This document shows, one piece after another, positions 1 through 40,387 of a stretch of DNA of 40,387 bases. Both the position numbers and the translations under genes were made by a program. The DNA lies in sequence record MH464253; one strand, 5' to 3'. The DNA comes from Shigella phage SFPH2. Under the pieces are notes generated by a model that did no database searches, was not told the origin of the DNA, and worked only from the letters and a program-made list of their open reading frames with translations. Positions within the stretch are counted from its first letter, which is position 1, and each line of letters starts with the position of its first letter.

Positions 1-909
1 GCGACCTTTAGCCCAGTACCCACCACCAACCACCCCGGTCCACGGCTTAGGTGGCACGACGCAGGGCTGGTAAACTGGGGCAATTCCTGCCAGAGAGAAA
101 CCACGCTGAGCCATCTTCTTGACCCAGAAGTCAGACAGGTGGACCATCTCAACGTCTGCCGCAGCGTTGCCTGCACCGTAGCGCTTAAGCTCGACCAGTT
201 GTGAGGACTGGATGACCAGCTCAAGCATCTTGATGCCTACGTGAACAGCCTCGGTCGGACTCCAAGTCCCCCACGCGTCAGCCAGTTGTCCCTGCTCAAG
301 CATAGACGCCTCGACTGCCTGCATGTAGGCCTTCTTGTAGCTTGCGCCAGCGCGTTTCTTCAGGTTCTCCGCGATGGTCTTCTTGAAGTGCTCCTGCTCC
401 TGCTCACGGATGCGACCAAAGCGGATTTCATCTTCCAGTGTGCGACCTATCGCGGATGCCATAGGAGTTATCGGAATGCCTTCAGGCTTGACCAGCTTGC
501 TGAGGATGACTTTCAGTATGATGACCGCAGCAGACTCCGCAGAGATTAGCAGAGAGCGGTCTTTGACAGCCTTCTCGTCAGTGCTCATCATGGTAAACGC
601 CACGCTTGGACGTGAGGTCGAGGACTTACCGTCCGGGCCTTCATGCCACTCACGCACAGCCTTAGCGATGGTCGGAACCAGTGTTTGCATCAGAGGTTTA
701 GCGACCTGATTGTCTGCCAGCTCCCCGCGCTCGGTCTGACGCTCAAGGTTCTTAATGAAACGTCGCTCACCTTCAGTGTATGCCTCATGCTCTAGCTGGA
801 GCTGTTTGACTGCGAGGTCTTGCCCGTAGTGGTCAGCCAGTACGTTGAAAGGTTCGATTGCATTCGACACATCAGAGAAGTCGTGTTTGTCAATTGAGAT
901 GACGCTCAT
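1..909 (-). CDS. gp1: DNA-directed RNA polymerase, N-terminal part (gene cut by window boundary; continues at 40387..38615)
   Basis: ATG at 909..907 with AAGGA 9 nt upstream; translation MSVISIDKHDFSD...FGRIREQEQEHFKK...PCVVPPKPWTGVVGGGYWAKGR is colinear with T7 RNAP N-terminus; frame runs off position 1 with a complete codon. Confidence 0.93.
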   Translation of the reverse strand, partial: MSVISIDKHDFSDVSNAIEPFNVLADHYGQDLAVKQLQLEHEAYTEGERRFIKNLERQTERGELADNQVAKPLMQTLVPTIAKAVREWHEGPDGKSSTSRPSVAFTMMSTDEKAVKDRSLLISAESAAVIILKVILSKLVKPEGIPITPMASAIGRTLEDEIRFGRIREQEQEHFKKTIAENLKKRAGASYKKAYMQAVEASMLEQGQLADAWGTWSPTEAVHVGIKMLELVIQSSQLVELKRYGAGNAAADVEMVHLSDFWVKKMAQRGFSLAGIAPVYQPCVVPPKPWTGVVGGGYWAKGR

Positions 910-984
910 ACTTAAAGTCCTTATAACTGTTGTCTTATCACTAAAGTCTTTCACTTCAGTCCTGACTTAGAGTCTTTCGACCTT

Positions 985-1007
985 GAGTCCTTTAGTGATA
1001 GTTTAGT
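985..1007 (-). promoter_or_regulatory. Phage-promoter-like element upstream of gene 1 (ACTAAACTATCACTAAAGGACTC); variant of the consensus, also half of a 10-bp inverted repeat
   Basis: 17 of 19 upstream positions match the phage promoter consensus but TATAGGG is replaced by TAAAGGA; ATCACTAAAG (plus 944-953 region) pairs with CTTTAGTGAT (988-997). Confidence 0.35.
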
Positions 1008-1011
1008 CCAA

Positions 1012-1338
1012 CTACTTGCATATCAGTGGGTTAGCGTGTAGATGACTGAAGTCACCGCGTGTAGTGTGCTTGATGTCTGACCGCTGGTCTATTGCCCTCC
1101 AGCCGGAGACCAGAAGTTTACCATCGTCAGTGCGAGGTCGTCCACCATACGCCAGACACATCAGCTCGGCCTTATGGCCCTCGGCCCGGAGTCTTGCTTG
1201 CAGCACCCGGTCGCGCTCCTGCTGTTGACGAATGGTGTGACTTGAGGTCCCGTGACGGTAGCCTGTAGCCAGTGCTGAAAGCAGGTTAAGGTCTGCGTCC
1301 AGCGCATGAACCAGATTAATCCCATATGACTTGCTCAT
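1012..1338 (-). CDS. Hypothetical protein, 108 aa, between kinase and RNAP
   Basis: Minus-strand ORF with ATG start overlapping upstream stop (TAATG); no recognisable homolog from memory. Confidence 0.45.
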   Translation of the reverse strand: MSKSYGINLVHALDADLNLLSALATGYRHGTSSHTIRQQQERDRVLQARLRAEGHKAELMCLAYGGRPRTDDGKLLVSGWRAIDQRSDIKHTTRGDFSHLHANPLICK

Positions 1339-1688: not shown

Positions 1689-2423
1689 TCACTCAGCTAT
1701 TGCGTTCAGCCTGCCTTGCAGCTCGTCTTGATGGTCTGCCTGAGTCCAAGACACTGGGTCTGTGATTATCAGTCGCCCGTTGTTATCAACCATCACATTA
1801 GCGCGGTGTGTGTCGAATGATGCCAGCCCGTAGAAGAAACTGTTAATCTTCTTAGCAGTCTGCGCAAGGTCCTTGATATACTGGGCCTCGACGTGTGCAA
1901 ACTCAGCCCGTGCGTCTTGGTCCAGCCACCAGCTCAGGGCCTCAGACGGTTGCTCGCAATGGTCTATTATCGCGTTGACTACACGCCACGACACGTTTAA
2001 GACTCGCTGCTCGTAGGTCTCACCATCCCGGCAGTAGTCACCGCCGATGTCATTCAGTGAGCGGTACTTATCCATAGCCACCATGTAGGCCCTGCTGAAG
2101 CGCTTGACCAGATGGATGACCGGAAGCCCAGCCAGACCCTCGTTCTCTCGGCAGAAGGCCGCATATGCAGCGCCTGAGTCATCCTTCTTAAAGCCTACCT
2201 TGATTGCATATCCCGGCAGGTCCTCATGCTCAAAGGCAGCGGCGAAATGTCCAAGGCCTAACAGCTTGTAACCATGTTCCCGCGCCAGTATCTCAAAGGC
2301 TCCCCAGCGAGGTTGACCAGCTATGCCAGCGCTAGAGTCTTCAATCTTGTAGCACTCCTCGCAGATGATAGCGTGGAGCTGAGACATCAGGTTATTCATG
2401 ATTACTTTATCGTGTGCGTTCAT
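1689..2423 (-). CDS. gp0.7: Serine/threonine protein kinase (T7 gp0.7-type kinase domain only)
   Basis: LGLGHFAAAF...AIKVGFKKDDSGAAYAAFCR...ITDPVS blocks match T7 gp0.7 kinase domain; ATG at 2423 (MNAHDK) has AAGGAAAC SD, the track start at 2456 is TTG; about 115 residues shorter than T7 gp0.7. Confidence 0.85.
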   Translation of the reverse strand: MNAHDKVIMNNLMSQLHAIICEECYKIEDSSAGIAGQPRWGAFEILAREHGYKLLGLGHFAAAFEHEDLPGYAIKVGFKKDDSGAAYAAFCRENEGLAGLPVIHLVKRFSRAYMVAMDKYRSLNDIGGDYCRDGETYEQRVLNVSWRVVNAIIDHCEQPSEALSWWLDQDARAEFAHVEAQYIKDLAQTAKKINSFFYGLASFDTHRANVMVDNNGRLIITDPVSWTQADHQDELQGRLNAIAE

Positions 2424-17919: not shown

Positions 17920-17947
17920 AAAGTCTCCTATAACTTAAAGGGCCTAT

Positions 17948-17970
17948 AGTCCCTATAGTGATAGTTAAGT
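17948..17970 (-). promoter_or_regulatory. Phage RNAP promoter (phi13 position): ACTTAACTATCACTATAGGGACT
   Basis: Consensus match between gp12 and gp13. Confidence 0.85.
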
Positions 17971-26162: not shown

Positions 26163-26224
26163 CTTAAAGTCTCCTCTTAAAGTATTAACTTAAGTTTATC
26201 TTATAGTCATAACTTAGGTCCTAA

Positions 26225-26247
26225 AGTCCCTATAGTGATAGTTTAGT
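26225..26247 (-). promoter_or_regulatory. Phage RNAP promoter (phi6.5 position): ACTAAACTATCACTATAGGGACT
   Basis: Full consensus in the gp6/gp6.5 intergenic region; preceded by GGGCC-loop-GGCCC hairpin (plus 26346-26363). Confidence 0.88.
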
Positions 26248-30724: not shown

Positions 30725-30768
30725 AGTCTAATCATAAAGGCCACTCGAAGTGAATGGCCTTGAGTCTA
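30725..30768 (-). promoter_or_regulatory. Conserved RNA hairpin E directly downstream of promoter (transcript 5' stem-loop / candidate RNase III site)
   Basis: GGCCAUUC-ACUUC-GAGUGGCC with G-U wobble, flanks AGACUCAAGG / CCUUUAUGAUUAG as in hairpins C and D. Confidence 0.5.
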
Positions 30769-30788
30769 TCCTACAGTGATAGTTAAGC
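30766..30788 (-). promoter_or_regulatory. Phage RNAP promoter variant upstream of DNA polymerase: CTTAACTATCACTGTAGGATAGA
   Basis: Consensus with one substitution (TGTAGG for TATAGG). Confidence 0.7.
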
Positions 30789-37293: not shown

Positions 37294-37581
37294 TTAAAGG
37301 AATCGACCAGTGTAGTCGTTGAACTGTTTGTTAAACCAAGTGGCAACCGCTACGGTCTGCACATCTTCGTCATGAATATTCGGGTACTCCGTGAAGTCCT
37401 TCTCGATGAGGACCTCTTTCGTATGGCTGTGGACTATAACCGCCCGGACGCAGTGCCTGTTCATCATTGGGTCGAACCAAGTGCTTACCACTGCGTTATA
37501 GTCGGTCTCGGACTGCCAGTTGTGAATAGCTCTGCGGAGGGTGTTCAGGTTTCCACTATGCGCTCTTGAGAACATGCCCAT
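37294..37581 (-). CDS. gp1.2: gp1.2-like protein (host dGTPase inhibitor in T7)
   Basis: 95 aa; SGNL, HDEDV and W..W features similar to recalled T7 gp1.2; synteny after gene 1.1. Confidence 0.7.
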   Translation of the reverse strand: MGMFSRAHSGNLNTLRRAIHNWQSETDYNAVVSTWFDPMMNRHCVRAVIVHSHTKEVLIEKDFTEYPNIHDEDVQTVAVATWFNKQFNDYTGRFL

Positions 37582-37584
37582 GTT

Positions 37585-37764
37585 TTACGCTCCTACGAAA
37601 TACTTCTCTTGGTTAACCAGCGAGTCTTTACCTTCAGCGTTACGGAAAGCACCCTTGACACCACCGCCACGCTTGGTCTTGTTCAGCTTGCGTCCCTTCG
37701 GAATGTAGCCTTCAGTCTGCTGACGTTCACGGATGCGCTCGAAGTTGATAGTGTTCTGATACAT
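37585..37764 (-). CDS. gp1.1: gp1.1-like small basic protein (59 aa)
   Basis: MYQNTINFERIRERQQTEGYIPKGRKLNKTKRGGG...; KGRKLNKTKR identical to T7 gp1.1 motif; AGGAG SD; below track cutoff. Confidence 0.75.
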   Translation of the reverse strand: MYQNTINFERIRERQQTEGYIPKGRKLNKTKRGGGVKGAFRNAEGKDSLVNQEKYFVGA

Positions 37765-37792: not shown

Positions 37793-37838
37793 GTTAATCA
37801 TGAAGGCCACGACTTTGAGTCATGACCTTGAGTCTAAT
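37793..37838 (-). promoter_or_regulatory. Conserved RNA hairpin D (R1.1-position candidate RNase III site) at 5' end of phi1.1 transcript
   Basis: AAGGUCAUGACU-caa-AGUCGUGGCCUU: 12-bp stem with two G-U wobbles, 3-nt loop. Confidence 0.55.
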
Positions 37839-37857
37839 CCTATAGTGATAGTTTAGA
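37835..37857 (-). promoter_or_regulatory. Phage RNAP promoter (phi1.1 position): CTAAACTATCACTATAGGATTAG
   Basis: Consensus match upstream of gene 1.1, overlapping the stop of the 156-aa ORF. Confidence 0.85.
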
Positions 37858-38323
37858 TGACGACGCGAGGTCTTACCCGAACGAATGCCTGAAGCGCTCG
37901 CTCTCGTTCGGCCTCTTCTCCGTATACTTTAACTTGCTCATAGTCGTACTGGATTCGACCGTCGATGTCGCTAAGTCGATACTCAAAATCCTTCTGAGAG
38001 CCATCCGTGTGGTGCTGGTGGATAGTCAGCTCCCGCTCGGTCCGACTCGTGGTGAAGTGAGTCACTGTCTTGCCACATGGCCCCGGCCCGGTCTTGAACT
38101 CAGTCGGCTGATAGAGGCCATTGAACAGCGCCCTGAACTTCAGGCCTACCATACGCTTCACAGTCACAGGCTCTGGCGGCGTTAAGCGTCTGCGCTCGGA
38201 TTCAGCAAGTTTATCCTTCAGCCTCTCGTTGTCCTTGTCACGGACCTCTACGGCTCGCTCCAAGTATGCCGCCTTCATGCTCAACTCTTTGATTTGCGCT
38301 TTAAGTTTTGACTTACCGAACAT
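37853..38323 (-). CDS. Hypothetical protein (156 aa), predicted N-terminal coiled coil, inserted between gene 1 and phi1.1
   Basis: ATG with GAGG SD; KLKAQIKELSMKAAYLERAVEVRDKDNERLKDKLAESERRRL heptad-like N-terminus. Confidence 0.6.
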   Translation of the reverse strand: MFGKSKLKAQIKELSMKAAYLERAVEVRDKDNERLKDKLAESERRRLTPPEPVTVKRMVGLKFRALFNGLYQPTEFKTGPGPCGKTVTHFTTSRTERELTIHQHHTDGSQKDFEYRLSDIDGRIQYDYEQVKVYGEEAERERALQAFVRVRPRVVI

Positions 38324-38401
38324 ATGGTTAACCTCTTCTGCGTTGAATTAAAGTGTACACTGCTAAGAAGGCCAGCCATAAGGCCAGCCACTGAAGGTCC
38401 G

Positions 38402-38602
38402 TCATTTCGTCACAGCCTCGGTCAAGGCCTGTTCGTGTGACTTCTCAACCTGCTGCACCAGCCATTTGAATGGGACGTTAAGCTGCTTTGACATCTCGGT
38501 TGGAATGACCGTGGTCTTTACCAGACCCTTGCCATTATGTTCGGCCACGGTCACGATTTGAGTACCGCCTTTAACGCCAGTTTGCTTGTGTGCGAATTTC
38601 AT
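38402..38602 (-). CDS. Hypothetical protein (66 aa) immediately after RNAP
   Basis: ATG-start ORF 10 nt after RNAP stop. Confidence 0.55.
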   Translation of the reverse strand: MKFAHKQTGVKGGTQIVTVAEHNGKGLVKTTVIPTEMSKQLNVPFKWLVQQVEKSHEQALTEAVTK

Positions 38603-38614
38603 GTAGGTGCCTCC

Positions 38615-40387
38615 TTAGGCGAATGCAAAGTCAGATAGCAGAATGTCTTCGATGTTCAGTTTACCGCGCTTCGGCAGCTCAGGCAATTTGTCGCGCTGGC
38701 TCTCATGAAGCTGGTCCTCGAACTGCTCGTAGAAGTCTTGCAGAACATCGTTGTCTCGGTAGGTCTCGACCATCGTCTCACGGACTCCCTTGAACAGGAA
38801 CTCAGCGTCTGCCGGGATGGTCCCAAAGCTGTCGTGAATCACCGCGAAGGACATCACGCCATACTTGCGGTGGGTATGGACTACAGTCTTCCTCAGGTGA
38901 CTGCCATCCTGTGAGTGTACAAAGTTAGGGCTGATACCGGACTCCTGCTTGTGCTTGTCCAGCTCTTTCTTCGACCCTTTGTTGACTGTCGGTTGCAGGT
39001 TGAACGACCCAAGGAACAGGAGGTTCAGCCGTGTGGTGTCTTTCTTGCGGTATTCCTGCCAGACCGGGAACCCATCAGGTGTTACCCAGTGTACCGGAAG
39101 GCAAGGCTTCAGGATTTCGCCAGTCTTCTTGTCCTTCACTTCAGCAGCCAGTAGCTTGGCAGCGCCTTGAAGCCACTTCATCGCGTCAACCGCAGCAACT
39201 ACGGTCACACTCACGGCGTCCCATATCATCTTAGCCATGAAGCGAGACGCTTGGCTTGGGTCGGTGAACATTGCGCCTTTACCGCTGTCAATCGCTGGCA
39301 TCACGGTGTCCTCAAACACTTGGTCCGCGAACCCGTATTCTTTCGACCCGTAGGCCAGAGTCATGACCGAGCGTTTAGTGACCGAGCGTGACATCCCGTA
39401 GGTCAGCCACTGTCGAGCCAGCTCACGGGTCCCAAGGACCAGACGCTCAGTAATCTCGCCTGTCTTCTTGTCCTCAAAGGTCTTCATTTCGTTGTCGCTC
39501 CCGTTGACCAGCAGTTCCTTGAGCTGTTCTTCCACCCGGTCGGACACAATGCGGTAGATGTCTTGGACCTTCCCGCTTGGCGTCAGGTTTACCGCATGTC
39601 CACCAACGTGGTCACGGAGCATAGCGCTGAAGTGCTGAATCCCGGAGCAGGACCCATCGAACGCGATAGGCAGTGAGCAGGAGTAACTCAGCCCGTGGTG
39701 CATGACTCCAGCATACTCAAAGCAGAACGCTAGGAAGCAGAACGGAGAGTCTAACCGGCCCCACCAATCAATGCTGTCCATCGGATTCTTTGCTGCTGAG
39801 AGGATGTTGTCGTGGTTGTCTTCGACCCACTTGATGCGCTCCTCAAAGGTGACTTTATCGACACCCGCGCAGTTTGCACCATGTACCTTCAGCCATTTGA
39901 AGCCGTCCGCACCGATTGGTTTACCGACCGCCAGAGTCAGCAGGCCCTTCTGCATATCGTTGCCTTGAGGGTTGAACATCGGGACAGCGTACACTCGGCC
40001 CCGCCAGTCCATGTTGTACGGGAACCAGATGGCCTTAAACTGAGAGAACTTGTTAGCCTGTGAGACGATGAAGCTCAGGGACAAGCGGCGCGACTGTCGG
40101 GCCTTCTCGCGTCGATAGATGCCAGCCGCAGACTTCTTCCAAGCCTTAAGCTCCTCCTCGGTCTCACCCGCATAGTCTTCAGGCTTCAGTGGCTCCATCT
40201 GAGGGATGTCAGCGATAGGCGTGTTATTCAGCTTCTCGACCATGTTCACCACTTCCAGCACCTTCTTGTTTACCTTCCAAGGAGTCTGCTGAATGATGTT
40301 CACTGCCTCTACCACTTCAGGCATGTACACGTCTTCGTAGCGCTGGACCGCAGCCTTAGACCCTAAGCGAATCAGTGGTAGAGGTCT
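38615..40387 (-). CDS. gp1: DNA-directed RNA polymerase, C-terminal part (continuation of 909..1 across the circular junction)
   Basis: Frame open to window edge; ...RYEDVYMPEV, FPYNMDWRGRVYAV.MFNPQGNDM.KGLLTLA, SPFCFLAFCFEYAGV.HHGLSY, GIQHFSAMLRD, SVMTLAYGSKE, HDSFGT, ends DFAFA as T7 RNAP. Confidence 0.97.
   Translation of the reverse strand, partial: RPLPLIRLGSKAAVQRYEDVYMPEVVEAVNIIQQTPWKVNKKVLEVVNMVEKLNNTPIADIPQMEPLKPEDYAGETEEELKAWKKSAAGIYRREKARQSRRLSLSFIVSQANKFSQFKAIWFPYNMDWRGRVYAVPMFNPQGNDMQKGLLTLAVGKPIGADGFKWLKVHGANCAGVDKVTFEERIKWVEDNHDNILSAAKNPMDSIDWWGRLDSPFCFLAFCFEYAGVMHHGLSYSCSLPIAFDGSCSGIQHFSAMLRDHVGGHAVNLTPSGKVQDIYRIVSDRVEEQLKELLVNGSDNEMKTFEDKKTGEITERLVLGTRELARQWLTYGMSRSVTKRSVMTLAYGSKEYGFADQVFEDTVMPAIDSGKGAMFTDPSQASRFMAKMIWDAVSVTVVAAVDAMKWLQGAAKLLAAEVKDKKTGEILKPCLPVHWVTPDGFPVWQEYRKKDTTRLNLLFLGSFNLQPTVNKGSKKELDKHKQESGISPNFVHSQDGSHLRKTVVHTHRKYGVMSFAVIHDSFGTIPADAEFLFKGVRETMVETYRDNDVLQDFYEQFEDQLHESQRDKLPELPKRGKLNIEDILLSDFAFA

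What the first reader, a model, noticed from the sequence alone, without database searches (positions are those of the whole stretch)
37853..38602. Two-gene insertion between RNAP and the phi1.1 promoter (66-aa and 156-aa coiled-coil proteins)
In T7 the phi1.1 promoters follow gene 1 closely; here two ORFs are inserted (38402..38602 and 37853..38323). The 156-aa protein has a long heptad-like N-terminus and a Gly/Pro/Thr-rich C-terminal half. Being made with RNAP in the early-to-middle switch, these are candidates for host-takeover or anti-defence functions. The gap between them holds a tandem GGCTGGCCTT repeat (about 38355-38385).
Basis: partly seen in the sequence, partly recalled or inferred. 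Interest (0 to 1): 0.55.

Follow-up and report, generated by a model that had tools for sequence, protein, structure and literature searches.

The report
Small early genes after phage RNAP
Just downstream of the RNA-polymerase gene of this K1F-like (Kayfunavirus) phage lie three real small genes of unknown function: a genus-wide 66-aa protein, an overlooked 25-aa membrane peptide hidden in the supposed "gap", and a member of the already catalogued T3 gp1.05 family. The finding is genuine but mostly ordinary.

Summary
The window is a complete Kayfunavirus genome, apparently Shigella phage SFPH2, with its genes on the minus strand. Both ORFs are real, have ribosome-binding sites and are under purifying selection. 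The 156-aa protein belongs to the known T3 gene 1.05 family (Pfam PF25755, 92.6 bits). It has a leucine-zipper-like helix, a conserved six-stranded beta domain with no solved structural analogue, and a C-terminal helix. It is not Gly/Pro/Thr-rich. It is a variable cassette: the type species K1F and about half of sampled relatives lack it exactly. The 66-aa protein is found in essentially all Kayfunavirus records (219), has a generic three-strand, two-helix fold, and has no annotated function. The "gap with a tandem repeat" is not a gap. It holds a 25-codon gene (38328..38405, minus strand) that overlaps the 66-aa stop by ATGA and encodes a single-pass membrane peptide, MTDLQWLALWLAFLAVYTLIQRRRG. 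This ORF is intact in all 18 genomes examined (pN/pS 0.31 against about 1 in the other frames) and is annotated in only two records. The repeat is simply the codons W-L-A repeated. In other phages the gp1.05 domain is often fused to an N-terminal membrane anchor. No function is established. An early, dispensable, membrane-proximal host-interaction role is the best guess. The family and both named ORFs are already in databases, and interest is low to moderate.

The parts
38615..40387 (-). 3' part of gene 1 (T7-type RNA polymerase). The gene is split by the window ends, and its first ~304 codons lie at 912..1 (-).
   Evidence: Annotated as RNA polymerase in relatives.
38610..38617 (-). RNAP stop codon TAA embedded in the Shine-Dalgarno sequence (TAAGGAGG) of the 66-aa ORF, 12 nt before its ATG.
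   Evidence: Sequence. The same arrangement is seen in most relatives.
38402..38602 (-). p66: a 66-aa basic protein (phrog_8082, no Pfam match) and a core gene of the genus Kayfunavirus. The AF2 fold is three antiparallel strands plus two helices.
   Evidence: pN/pS 0.29.
38328..38405 (-). Overlooked 25-codon gene encoding MTDLQWLALWLAFLAVYTLIQRRRG, a single hydrophobic helix with a C-terminal RRR. Its ATG overlaps the p66 stop (ATGA), and its stop lies 4 nt before the gp1.05 ATG.
   Evidence: Annotated only in phages GA2A and IMM-002.
38368..38390 (-). Tandem 12-bp repeat (x1.9), equal to codons W-L-A-L / W-L-A-F of the 25-aa peptide. It is absent in the other main allele (LLALWLGAL).
   Evidence: The small hairpin it can form shows no covariation.
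37853..38323 (-). gp1.05: a 156-aa member of Pfam PF25755 (Phage_T3_1_05) and phrog_8103. It is a variable cassette within the genus.
38183..38320 (-). gp1.05 residues 2-47: a long helix with a leucine-zipper-like heptad and the fastest-evolving part of the protein (mean pairwise identity 43%, pN/pS 0.64).
37925..38167 (-). gp1.05 residues 53-133: the conserved six-stranded beta domain (the PF25755 core). G79, C83, Q103 and F113 are invariant. F76, G81, G84, V87, D107, G108, K111, Y115, G122 and R123 are nearly invariant.
   Evidence: No solved analogue was found.
37877..37921 (-). gp1.05 residues 135-149: C-terminal helix.
37835..37857 (-). Phage promoter phi1.1 (-17..+6) overlapping the gp1.05 stop codon, as phi1.1 does in T3.
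   Evidence: Annotated in EcoDS1 and T3.
37803..37829 (-). R1.1-type (RNase III-like) hairpin AAGGUCAUGACUCAAAGUCGUGGCCUU just downstream of the promoter.
   Evidence: z-score -2.3. Conserved in relatives. T3 annotates R1.1 at the equivalent place.
37585..37764 (-). The true gp1.1 homologue (Pfam PF08200).
37294..37581 (-). gp1.2 (dGTPase inhibitor family, PF10922).

Best explanation
The locus is a compact module of three small genes appended to the RNA-polymerase gene of a Kayfunavirus. All three are translationally linked and co-transcribed with gene 1.

(1) p66 is a basic protein with three strands and two helices, found in essentially every member of the genus.
(2) The second gene is a 25-aa single-pass inner-membrane micro-protein. 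The positive-inside rule predicts N-out/C-in topology. Its start codon overlaps the p66 stop (ATGA), so it is probably translated by termination-reinitiation.
(3) gp1.05 is a member of the T3 gene 1.05 family (PF25755). It consists of a probably dimerising coiled coil, a conserved all-beta domain and a C-terminal helix.

gp1.05 is a dispensable cassette that is gained or lost precisely between the micro-ORF stop and the phi1.1 promoter.

Shown: gene reality, conservation, family membership, architecture and polymorphism (about 0.9).

Inferred (about 0.35): these are early, non-essential host-interaction proteins that act at or near the cytoplasmic face of the inner membrane. On this view the PF25755 domain uses its conserved loop residues (C83, Q103, D107, K111, Y115, R123) to bind a host factor. 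The domain would be brought to the membrane in different lineages by a fused TM anchor, an amphipathic N-terminus, or possibly the separate TM peptide.
For: Gene reality:
- ORFs and ribosome-binding sites.
- pN/pS is 0.29 for p66, 0.31 for the mini-ORF (against 1.13 and 0.95 in the other two frames), and 0.24, 0.64 and 0.38 for the gp1.05 beta domain, coil and C-terminus.
- The mini-ORF is intact, always 25 codons, and starts in an ATGA/GTGA overlap in 16 loci plus Kosakonia phage Kc166A and K1F.

Family:
- PF25755 scores 92.6 bits against a cut-off of 27.
- EcoDS1 annotates the homologue as gp1.05.
- T3 has the same 3' arrangement, with phi1.1 overlapping the gene end followed by R1.1.

Structure: AF2 pLDDT is 94.4 for gp1.05 and 91.3 for p66.

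Membrane theme:
- 37 of 113 family representatives carry an N-terminal TM helix ahead of the coil or domain.
- Fused TM+coil+domain proteins sit directly after gene 1 in Erwinia phage pEp_SNUABM_03 and Berlinvirus BP12A.

Accessory nature:
- K1F lacks gp1.05 precisely.
- In a spread sample of 60 of 215 records, 33 lack it and 16 clearly carry it.
- Mosaicism: locus L016 has p66 at 98% identity but gp1.05 at 52%.
- T7 has none of the three genes.

Co-transcription: no phage promoter match between gene 1 and gp1.05, and no sigma-70-type promoter or convincing minus-strand terminator there.
Against: - No functional evidence of any kind exists. Pfam, PHROGs, NCBIfam and PADLOC give no function. 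Full-text search found gp1.05 only in annotation tables.
- Membrane proximity is not universal. 59 of 113 representatives are short, largely domain-only proteins. Coil+domain forms without a TM anchor and without an upstream mini-ORF occur in Elunavirus, Ningirsuvirus and some Berlinvirus.
- The mini-ORF persists without gp1.05 in K1F-like genomes, so it is not simply the gp1.05 anchor.
- Expression of the three proteins was not measured.
Confidence: 0.55

Rival explanations
1. p66 and/or gp1.05 would be anti-defence proteins, inhibitors of a bacterial immune system, made early alongside the RNAP.
For: The genes are placed to be co-transcribed with gene 1. gp1.05 shows presence/absence polymorphism and mosaic exchange within the genus. 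The coil is under relaxed constraint. The neighbouring genes (gp1.2, and gp0.3 or gp0.7 in the T7 group) are classical host-interaction genes (established knowledge).
Against: No similarity to any characterised protein was found. pN/pS is below 1 everywhere, so there is no arms-race signature. p66 is highly conserved and universal in the genus, which is unlike most host-specific counter-defence genes.
Confidence: 0.2
2. This is the split-gene reading. The 25-aa TM peptide would be the detached membrane anchor of gp1.05, and the two would reconstitute the TM+coil+domain protein that other Studiervirinae encode as a single chain.
For: The order TM, then a basic stretch, then coil, then domain is the same as in the fused homologues. 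The peptide ORF ends 4-5 nt before the gp1.05 ATG. Pectobacterium phage Q19 has TM+coil and the domain separated by a single in-frame stop.
Against: K1F and about half of sampled Kayfunaviruses keep p66 and the peptide but lack gp1.05. The peptide is start-stop coupled to p66, not to gp1.05. The frame offset between the peptide ORF and gp1.05 varies between 4 and 5 nt. Coil+domain proteins exist elsewhere without any such peptide.
Confidence: 0.12
3. This is the membrane-function reading. The peptide, possibly with p66, would act on the inner membrane early in infection. It might exclude superinfecting phage DNA or modulate a host membrane protein, as small bacterial TM regulators do.
For: The peptide has a single TM helix with a positive C-terminus, kept under purifying selection. 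It co-occurs strictly with p66: 219 records match p66, and 215 match a 191-nt K1F query that covers the p66 end, the peptide ORF and phi1.1. It is placed to be co-transcribed with gene 1.
Against: Nothing beyond composition and position supports this. The peptide has no homologues of known function.
Confidence: 0.1
4. The 78 nt between the two ORFs would be non-coding and carry a functional tandem repeat or hairpin, such as an RNase III site, an attenuator or an origin element.
For: The repeat exists and can form an 8-bp hairpin in this phage. T3 places its primary origin between gene 1 and gene 1.05.
Against: The fold is no more stable than shuffled sequence (z-score -0.27). Only 6 pairs are shared among relatives, with no compensatory change and a positive covariation term. 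The repeat is missing from the second allele, while the ORF, its length and its hydrophobic profile are kept. Substitutions are codon-like, with pN/pS 0.31 in frame against about 1 out of frame. No terminator was called there.
Confidence: 0.03

Closest known systems
Phage T3 gene 1.05 protein (Pfam PF25755 Phage_T3_1_05; also phiYeO3-12 1.05, EcoDS1 gp1.05, Erwinia phage L1 gp1.05)
   Same: The beta domain is homologous, sharing the F-K-x-G-x-G-P-C-G-K, H-T-D-G and G-R motifs. The genome position is the same, directly after gene 1, with the phi1.1 promoter overlapping the 3' end and an R1.1 hairpin following.
   Different: T3 gp1.05 is 90 aa, essentially domain only with a short amphipathic N-terminus. 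It has its own phi1.05 promoter, and the primary origin overlaps its start. Here there is a 50-residue coiled coil and a C-terminal helix, no upstream phage promoter, and two extra genes between gene 1 and gp1.05.
TM-anchored gp1.05 homologues (for example Salmonella Berlinvirus BP12A gp06, 189 aa, and Erwinia phage pEp_SNUABM_03 gp47, 193 aa)
   Same: They have the same coil plus PF25755 domain and the same position directly after gene 1.
   Different: They carry an N-terminal transmembrane helix in the same polypeptide. In this window the only TM segment is a separate 25-aa ORF upstream.
K1F gp06 / EcoDS1 'gp1.1' (phrog_8082), the p66 family
   Same: They are orthologues of the 66-aa ORF (about 79-80% identity) in the same position after gene 1, followed by the same 25-codon ORF.
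   Different: The 'gp1.1' label in those records is a misnomer. p66 does not match Pfam PF08200, and the true gp1.1 homologue is 37585..37764. K1F lacks gp1.05.
Small bacterial and phage single-pass membrane proteins (for example the regulators MgrB, AcrZ and MgtS, or type I toxins such as Ibs and TisB). This resemblance is recalled from general knowledge, not tested here.
   Same: The size (25 aa) and one hydrophobic helix with a short charged tail are similar.
   Different: There is no sequence relationship. No partner, toxicity or regulation is known.
T7 early accessory proteins of the gene 1-1.3 region (gp1.1, gp1.2)
   Same: They are small, non-essential class I/II genes clustered around gene 1. 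Non-essentiality of the T7 genes is established knowledge.
   Different: T7 has nothing between gene 1 and phi1.1A/B. There is no homology to p66, the peptide or gp1.05.

Membership tests
Pfam PF25755 Phage_T3_1_05 (T3 gene 1.05 protein family) | HMM match above the curated gathering score | tested here: met
   92.6 bits against a cut-off of 27, E 1.5e-26, residues 58-128 covering profile positions 2-73 of 73. All 52 domain-level relatives also match.
Pfam PF25755 Phage_T3_1_05 (T3 gene 1.05 protein family) | Conserved motifs of the domain (G-x-G-P-C-G-K, Q-x-H-T-D-G, F-x-Y, G-R) | tested here: met
   G79, C83, Q103 and F113 are invariant. G81, G84, D107, G108, K111, Y115, G122 and R123 are conserved in at least 90% of 68 sequences.
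Pfam PF25755 Phage_T3_1_05 (T3 gene 1.05 protein family) | Genomic position: downstream of gene 1, upstream of gene 1.1, with phi1.1 overlapping the 3' end | tested here: met
Pfam PF25755 Phage_T3_1_05 (T3 gene 1.05 protein family) | Own phage promoter (phi1.05) directly upstream, as in T3, phiYeO3-12 and AP5 | tested here: not met
   No CACTATAGG-type site (<=1 mismatch) lies between 37860 and 38615. This is a feature of the T3 group, not of the protein family.
T7 gp1.1 (Pfam PF08200), the label given to p66 in the K1F and EcoDS1 records | Match to the Phage_1_1 profile | tested here: not met
   p66 has no Pfam hit at E<=1. The 59-aa ORF 37585..37764 does match PF08200 (E 5.6e-11).
'Microtubule-binding protein', the label given to gp1.05 in several GenBank records | Significant similarity to a microtubule-binding domain | tested here: not met
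   Only sub-threshold coiled-coil noise was found (ERM_helical E 0.29, TMF_DNA_bd E 0.9). PDB profile hits are generic coiled coils with E>=0.02.
P-loop NTPase (the sequence GPGPCGKT fits Walker A GxxxxGK[ST]) | Invariant Walker A Lys/Thr within an alpha/beta three-layer fold that also has a Walker B motif | tested here: not met
   K85 and T86 are not conserved across the family (variants GPCGL, GPCRR and GPCGQ). The motif is a loop between two strands of an all-beta domain of about 80 residues.
DUF2842, the label given to the 25-aa ORF in phage IMM-002 | Match to the Pfam model | tested here: not met
   No DUF2842 hit at E<=10 for four peptide variants. The only hit is a sub-threshold DUF5325 match (E 0.06-0.09).
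Single-pass small membrane protein (generic class) | One hydrophobic stretch long enough to span the bilayer, flanked by charged residues | tested here: met
   Residues 6-20 are uninterrupted and hydrophobic (WLALWLAFLAVYTLI), with D3 at the N-terminus and RRR at the C-terminus. The pattern is kept in all variants.
Single-pass small membrane protein (generic class) | Actual translation and membrane insertion | not testable with these tools
   This needs Ribo-seq or mass spectrometry, plus fractionation or reporter fusions.
Known anti-defence proteins | Homology to a characterised inhibitor, or a measured counter-defence phenotype | not tested
   No anti-defence library was available. PADLOC (a library of defence proteins) gave nothing. 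No phenotype data were found.

The most novel reading that the evidence does not exclude
p66, the 25-aa membrane peptide and gp1.05 would together form a previously unrecognised membrane-targeted early module of Autographiviridae. The PF25755 domain would be a structurally new fold with no PDB analogue and a conserved Cys/Gln/Asp/Lys/Tyr/Arg surface. It would be delivered to the inner membrane by interchangeable means (fused TM anchor, amphipathic helix or separate micro-protein) to neutralise a membrane-associated host factor or defence system. On this reading the micro-protein would be one of the smallest conserved phage membrane proteins known.
Probability: 0.2. Interest if true: 0.6.

Novelty: already known. 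Interest (0 to 1): 0.3.

Why it matters
This is a clean-up of a much-copied annotation. The 156-aa ORF should be called gp1.05 family (PF25755), not "microtubule-binding protein". The 66-aa ORF is not gp1.1. A conserved 25-codon membrane-peptide gene is missing from most of the Kayfunavirus records inspected, including the type species K1F.

It also makes gp1.05 more tractable. The family is widespread: 565 phage records match a relative at E<=1e-5. It has no known function or solved structure. This work shows that it is naturally dispensable, with isogenic-like plus and minus genomes in the wild. It also shows that the protein is often membrane-anchored. These two facts suggest simple experiments. 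None of this changes how T7-like phages are understood unless a function is found.

Tried and rejected
- Profile searches against PDB sequences found nothing.
- NCBIfam and PADLOC gave no meaningful hit, and PHROGs gave only families of unknown function.
- A Walker-A reading of GPGPCGKT was rejected.
- Matches to Bacteroidetes repeat proteins (P0263, P0302, P0306) are motif-level coincidences with 'PGPCGGTITETWT' repeats.
- An RNA-structure or terminator reading of the tandem repeat was rejected.
- A p66-peptide or peptide-gp1.05 fusion by frameshift is considered unlikely. There is no conserved slippery site, and the offset to gp1.05 varies between 4 and 5 nt.
- tblastn with the 25-aa peptide was too insensitive to count occurrences.
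- The search for related loci with three distant coil-type homologues returned nothing.
- The literature search found no functional study.
- The third large protein-database search was deliberately not used, because no outstanding question depended on it.
Full report
IDENTITY OF THE WINDOW

The 66-aa ORF is 100% identical to HOT79_gp49 of Shigella phage SFPH2, found on a 40,387-bp contig. The SFPH2 paper reports a 40,387-bp genome with 50 ORFs (PMC6302001). Megablast of the region hits 219 phage records, nearly all Kayfunavirus (K1F-like Studiervirinae), at 82-97% identity. All genes run on the minus strand. The sequence is a circular permutation opened inside gene 1: RNAP codons 1 to about 304 lie at 912..1 and the rest at 40387..38615.

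CHECK OF THE OBSERVATION

Both ORFs exist at the stated coordinates. The RNAP stop codon (38615-38617) is embedded in the TAAGGAGG Shine-Dalgarno sequence of the 66-aa ORF. The 156-aa ORF has an AGAGG site 8 nt upstream of its ATG.

The window carries 11 copies of a phage promoter with consensus GACTAAACTATCACTATAGGAA. One copy (37835..37857) overlaps the stop codon of the 156-aa ORF. It is followed by a stable hairpin, AAGGUCAUGACUCAAAGUCGUGGCCUU, at 37803..37829 (z-score -2.3). T3 annotates phi1.1 and RNase III site R1.1 in just this arrangement at the end of its gene 1.05.

No promoter match (<=1 mismatch) lies between gene 1 and the 156-aa ORF. No sigma-70-type promoter or convincing minus-strand terminator was called there either. 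The ORFs are therefore placed to be co-transcribed with gene 1; this is inferred, not measured.

THE 156-aa PROTEIN IS gp1.05

It matches Pfam PF25755 (Phage_T3_1_05) at 92.6 bits against a gathering score of 27, and phrog_8103 at E 5e-61. The EcoDS1 orthologue (83% identical) is annotated gp1.05.

An exhaustive HMMER search of 1.84 billion representatives found 116 clusters at E<=1e-3. After three spurious repeat proteins were dropped, the remaining 113 have three architectures:
- 59 short forms, largely domain-only (75-130 aa, the T3 type).
- 37 forms with an N-terminal transmembrane helix ahead of a coiled coil and/or the domain.
- 17 long forms with a coil but no TM helix, as here.

None is fused to any other domain. 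tblastn shows the family across Autographiviridae. 287 phage records match this query, and 565 match a distant relative at E<=1e-5. The genera include Teetrevirus (T3), Berlinvirus, Elunavirus, Pektosvirus, Pifdecavirus and Melnykvirinae.

AF2 with a 68-sequence alignment gives a confident model (pLDDT 94.4). It has a helix over residues 2-47, six antiparallel strands over 53-133, and a helix over 135-149. The N-terminal helix has a leucine-zipper-like register: d positions L7, L14, L21, L35 and a positions I11, A18, V25, N32, L39.

The "Gly/Pro/Thr-rich C-terminal half" does not hold. G+P+T is 21% and the region is a folded beta domain. The invariant residues G79, C83, Q103 and F113 and the nearly invariant D107, G108, K111, Y115, G122 and R123 lie largely in or next to the loops between strands 2 and 3 and between strands 4 and 5.

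GPGPCGKT fits the Walker A pattern, but K and T vary in the family and the fold is all-beta. A P-loop reading is therefore rejected.

gp1.05 IS A VARIABLE CASSETTE

The type species K1F has the 66-aa gene, but the next 25-codon ORF is followed directly by the phi1.1 promoter (...AGAGGTTAACCTAAACTATCACTATAGG...). gp1.05 is therefore absent exactly.

I used the K1F junction as a query and sampled 60 of the 215 matching records evenly down the ranking. Of these, 33 are contiguous like K1F and 16 are interrupted by an insert of roughly 470 nt, meaning gp1.05 is present. The remaining 11 match only in part, and several of those are annotated with gp1.05. In agreement, p66 is found in 219 records but full-length gp1.05 in only 84.

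Among 15 related loci, RNAP is 90-99% identical and gp1.1 is 95-100% identical to the window. p66 ranges over 55-98% and gp1.05 over 52-100%, and the two vary independently. For example, L016 has p66 at 98% and gp1.05 at 52%. Within gp1.05 the coil is the variable part (mean pairwise identity 43%, pN/pS 0.64) and the beta domain is constrained (82%, pN/pS 0.24). No region shows pN/pS above 1.

THE 66-aa PROTEIN

p66 (phrog_8082) has no Pfam, NCBIfam, PADLOC or PDB sequence match. It is highly conserved (mean column identity 80% across 24 sequences) and has pN/pS 0.29. It is present in 217 of 219 records at full length.

K1F and EcoDS1 call this protein "gp1.1", but the true gp1.1 homologue (PF08200, E 5.6e-11) is the 59-aa ORF at 37585..37764.

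THE "GAP" IS A THIRD GENE

The spacing between the two ORFs is 78-79 nt in all 16 aligned loci, and the differences between loci look codon-like. An ORF of exactly 25 codons starts in an ATGA (once GTGA) overlap with the p66 stop and ends 4-5 nt before the gp1.05 ATG. In the window it lies at 38328..38405 and encodes MTDLQWLALWLAFLAVYTLIQRRRG.

The ORF is intact in all 16 loci, in the divergent Kosakonia phage Kc166A (MSDSLWLVIWLALLVVYIIRQRRRG) and in K1F. pN/pS is 0.31 in this frame, and 0.33 when the part overlapping the gp1.05 Shine-Dalgarno sequence is excluded. It is 1.13 and 0.95 in the other two frames, both of which carry stops in most sequences.

The peptide is one hydrophobic helix with an acidic N-terminus and an RRR C-terminus. 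The positive-inside rule (established knowledge) predicts an N-out/C-in single-pass membrane protein.

The tandem repeat (12 bp x1.9 at 38368-38390) is simply W-L-A-L/W-L-A-F. The second common allele (LLALWLGAL) lacks the repeat. The hairpin the repeat can form is no more stable than shuffled sequence (z-score -0.27). Only six pairs are shared among relatives, with no covariation.

The ORF is annotated in phage GA2A (YP_009324944.1, hypothetical) and in IMM-002, where it is labelled "DUF2842", a label Pfam does not support. It is not annotated in K1F, EcoDS1, yong1, KKP_3263, SH4 or Kc166A.

HOW IT MIGHT WORK

Shown: three real genes that are tightly packed and placed to be co-transcribed with gene 1. 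Two of them (p66 and the peptide) always travel together. The third (gp1.05) is dispensable in nature.

Inferred: an early accessory function at or near the inner membrane. The main hint is architectural. About a third of family representatives fuse the PF25755 domain, through a coiled coil, to an N-terminal TM helix. Such fused proteins occupy the same slot after gene 1 in Berlinvirus BP12A and Erwinia phage pEp_SNUABM_03. T3 and Elunavirus versions begin with short amphipathic sequences (hydrophobic moment about 0.5).

I considered that the 25-aa peptide is the detached anchor of gp1.05. That idea is weakened for three reasons. The peptide persists where gp1.05 is absent. It is coupled to p66 rather than to gp1.05. 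Coil-type gp1.05 occurs elsewhere without any such peptide, preceded instead by a phage promoter.

Anti-defence, superinfection exclusion and modulation of a host membrane protein all remain possible. Nothing here discriminates among them.

COMPARISON AND NOVELTY

The locus is a member of known, catalogued families (PF25755/phrog_8103 and phrog_8082) in a published genome. The literature holds no functional data on any of them.

Beyond the databases, this analysis adds four things:
- The demonstration that the "intergenic" stretch is a conserved micro-protein gene.
- The three-architecture picture of the gp1.05 family.
- The natural presence/absence polymorphism of gp1.05.
- The correction of several misleading annotations.

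VERDICT

The feature is already known as sequence, and its function is unknown. Interest is 0.3.

Noticed in passing
window 1..912 and 38615..40387 (-): The window is a circular permutation of the linear phage genome, opened inside gene 1. The RNAP N-terminus (MSVISIDKHDF...) is at 912..1 and the remainder at 40387..38615, so the gene is split by the window ends.
   Followed up: yes
window ~980..1012 (-): A phage-promoter-like site (GGACTAAACTATCACTAAAGGA, one mismatch in the CACTATAGG core) followed by GACTCAAGGTCG lies about 70 nt upstream of the gene 1 start. T7 has no phage promoter there. If it is active, the phage's own RNAP could also transcribe gene 1 and the three small genes.
   Followed up: partly
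L030 (K1F NC_007456) 1175..1290: The type species K1F lacks gp1.05 exactly. The 25-codon ORF stop is followed at once by the phi1.1 promoter. About 33 of 60 sampled Kayfunavirus records share this arrangement.
   Followed up: yes
L001 (EcoDS1) 1801..2031; also L010: Some relatives carry an additional small ORF (a 76-codon CDS in EcoDS1, annotated 'unknown product') inserted between gene 1 and p66. This suggests the region just after gene 1 is a hot spot for small cassettes.
   Followed up: no
L021 (Pectobacterium phage Q19) 940..1500: Here a TM+coil ORF (orf07, 86 aa) and an unannotated PF25755 domain are in the same frame, separated by a single stop codon. This could be a nonsense mutation, a sequencing error or readthrough.
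   Followed up: partly
window 37294..37581 (-) and related loci: gp1.2 (dGTPase inhibitor family) of this phage finds no tblastn match in 9 of 15 related loci, although gp1.1 next to it is 95-100% identical. gp1.2 therefore seems to exist as unrelated or very divergent alleles within the genus.
   Followed up: no
L002 (Shigella phage ESh23, ON528733.1): The closest database record (97% identical) is annotated on the wrong strand with 'nonfunctional ... due to mutation' features such as 'Phage exonuclease' lying over this region. This is an annotation artefact.
   Followed up: no
window 17943..17960 and 26220..26237 (-): Two promoters are each followed immediately by a second, overlapping promoter-core-like copy (CACTATAGGGACTATAGG and CACTATAGGGACTTTAGG).
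   Followed up: no
proteins P0263, P0302, P0306: Large Bacteroidetes-type repeat proteins match gp1.05 residues ~50-100 seven times through a repeated 'FSATPGPCGGTITETWTATD' motif. This is probably a motif-level coincidence with the GPGPCGKTVTHFT hairpin.
   Followed up: partly
window 37803..37829, 30728..30778 and 980..997 (-): The sequence pair GACTCAAGGTC ... GTGGCCTT(T/C)ATGATT recurs downstream of several promoters. It resembles T7-group RNase III processing sites.
   Followed up: partly
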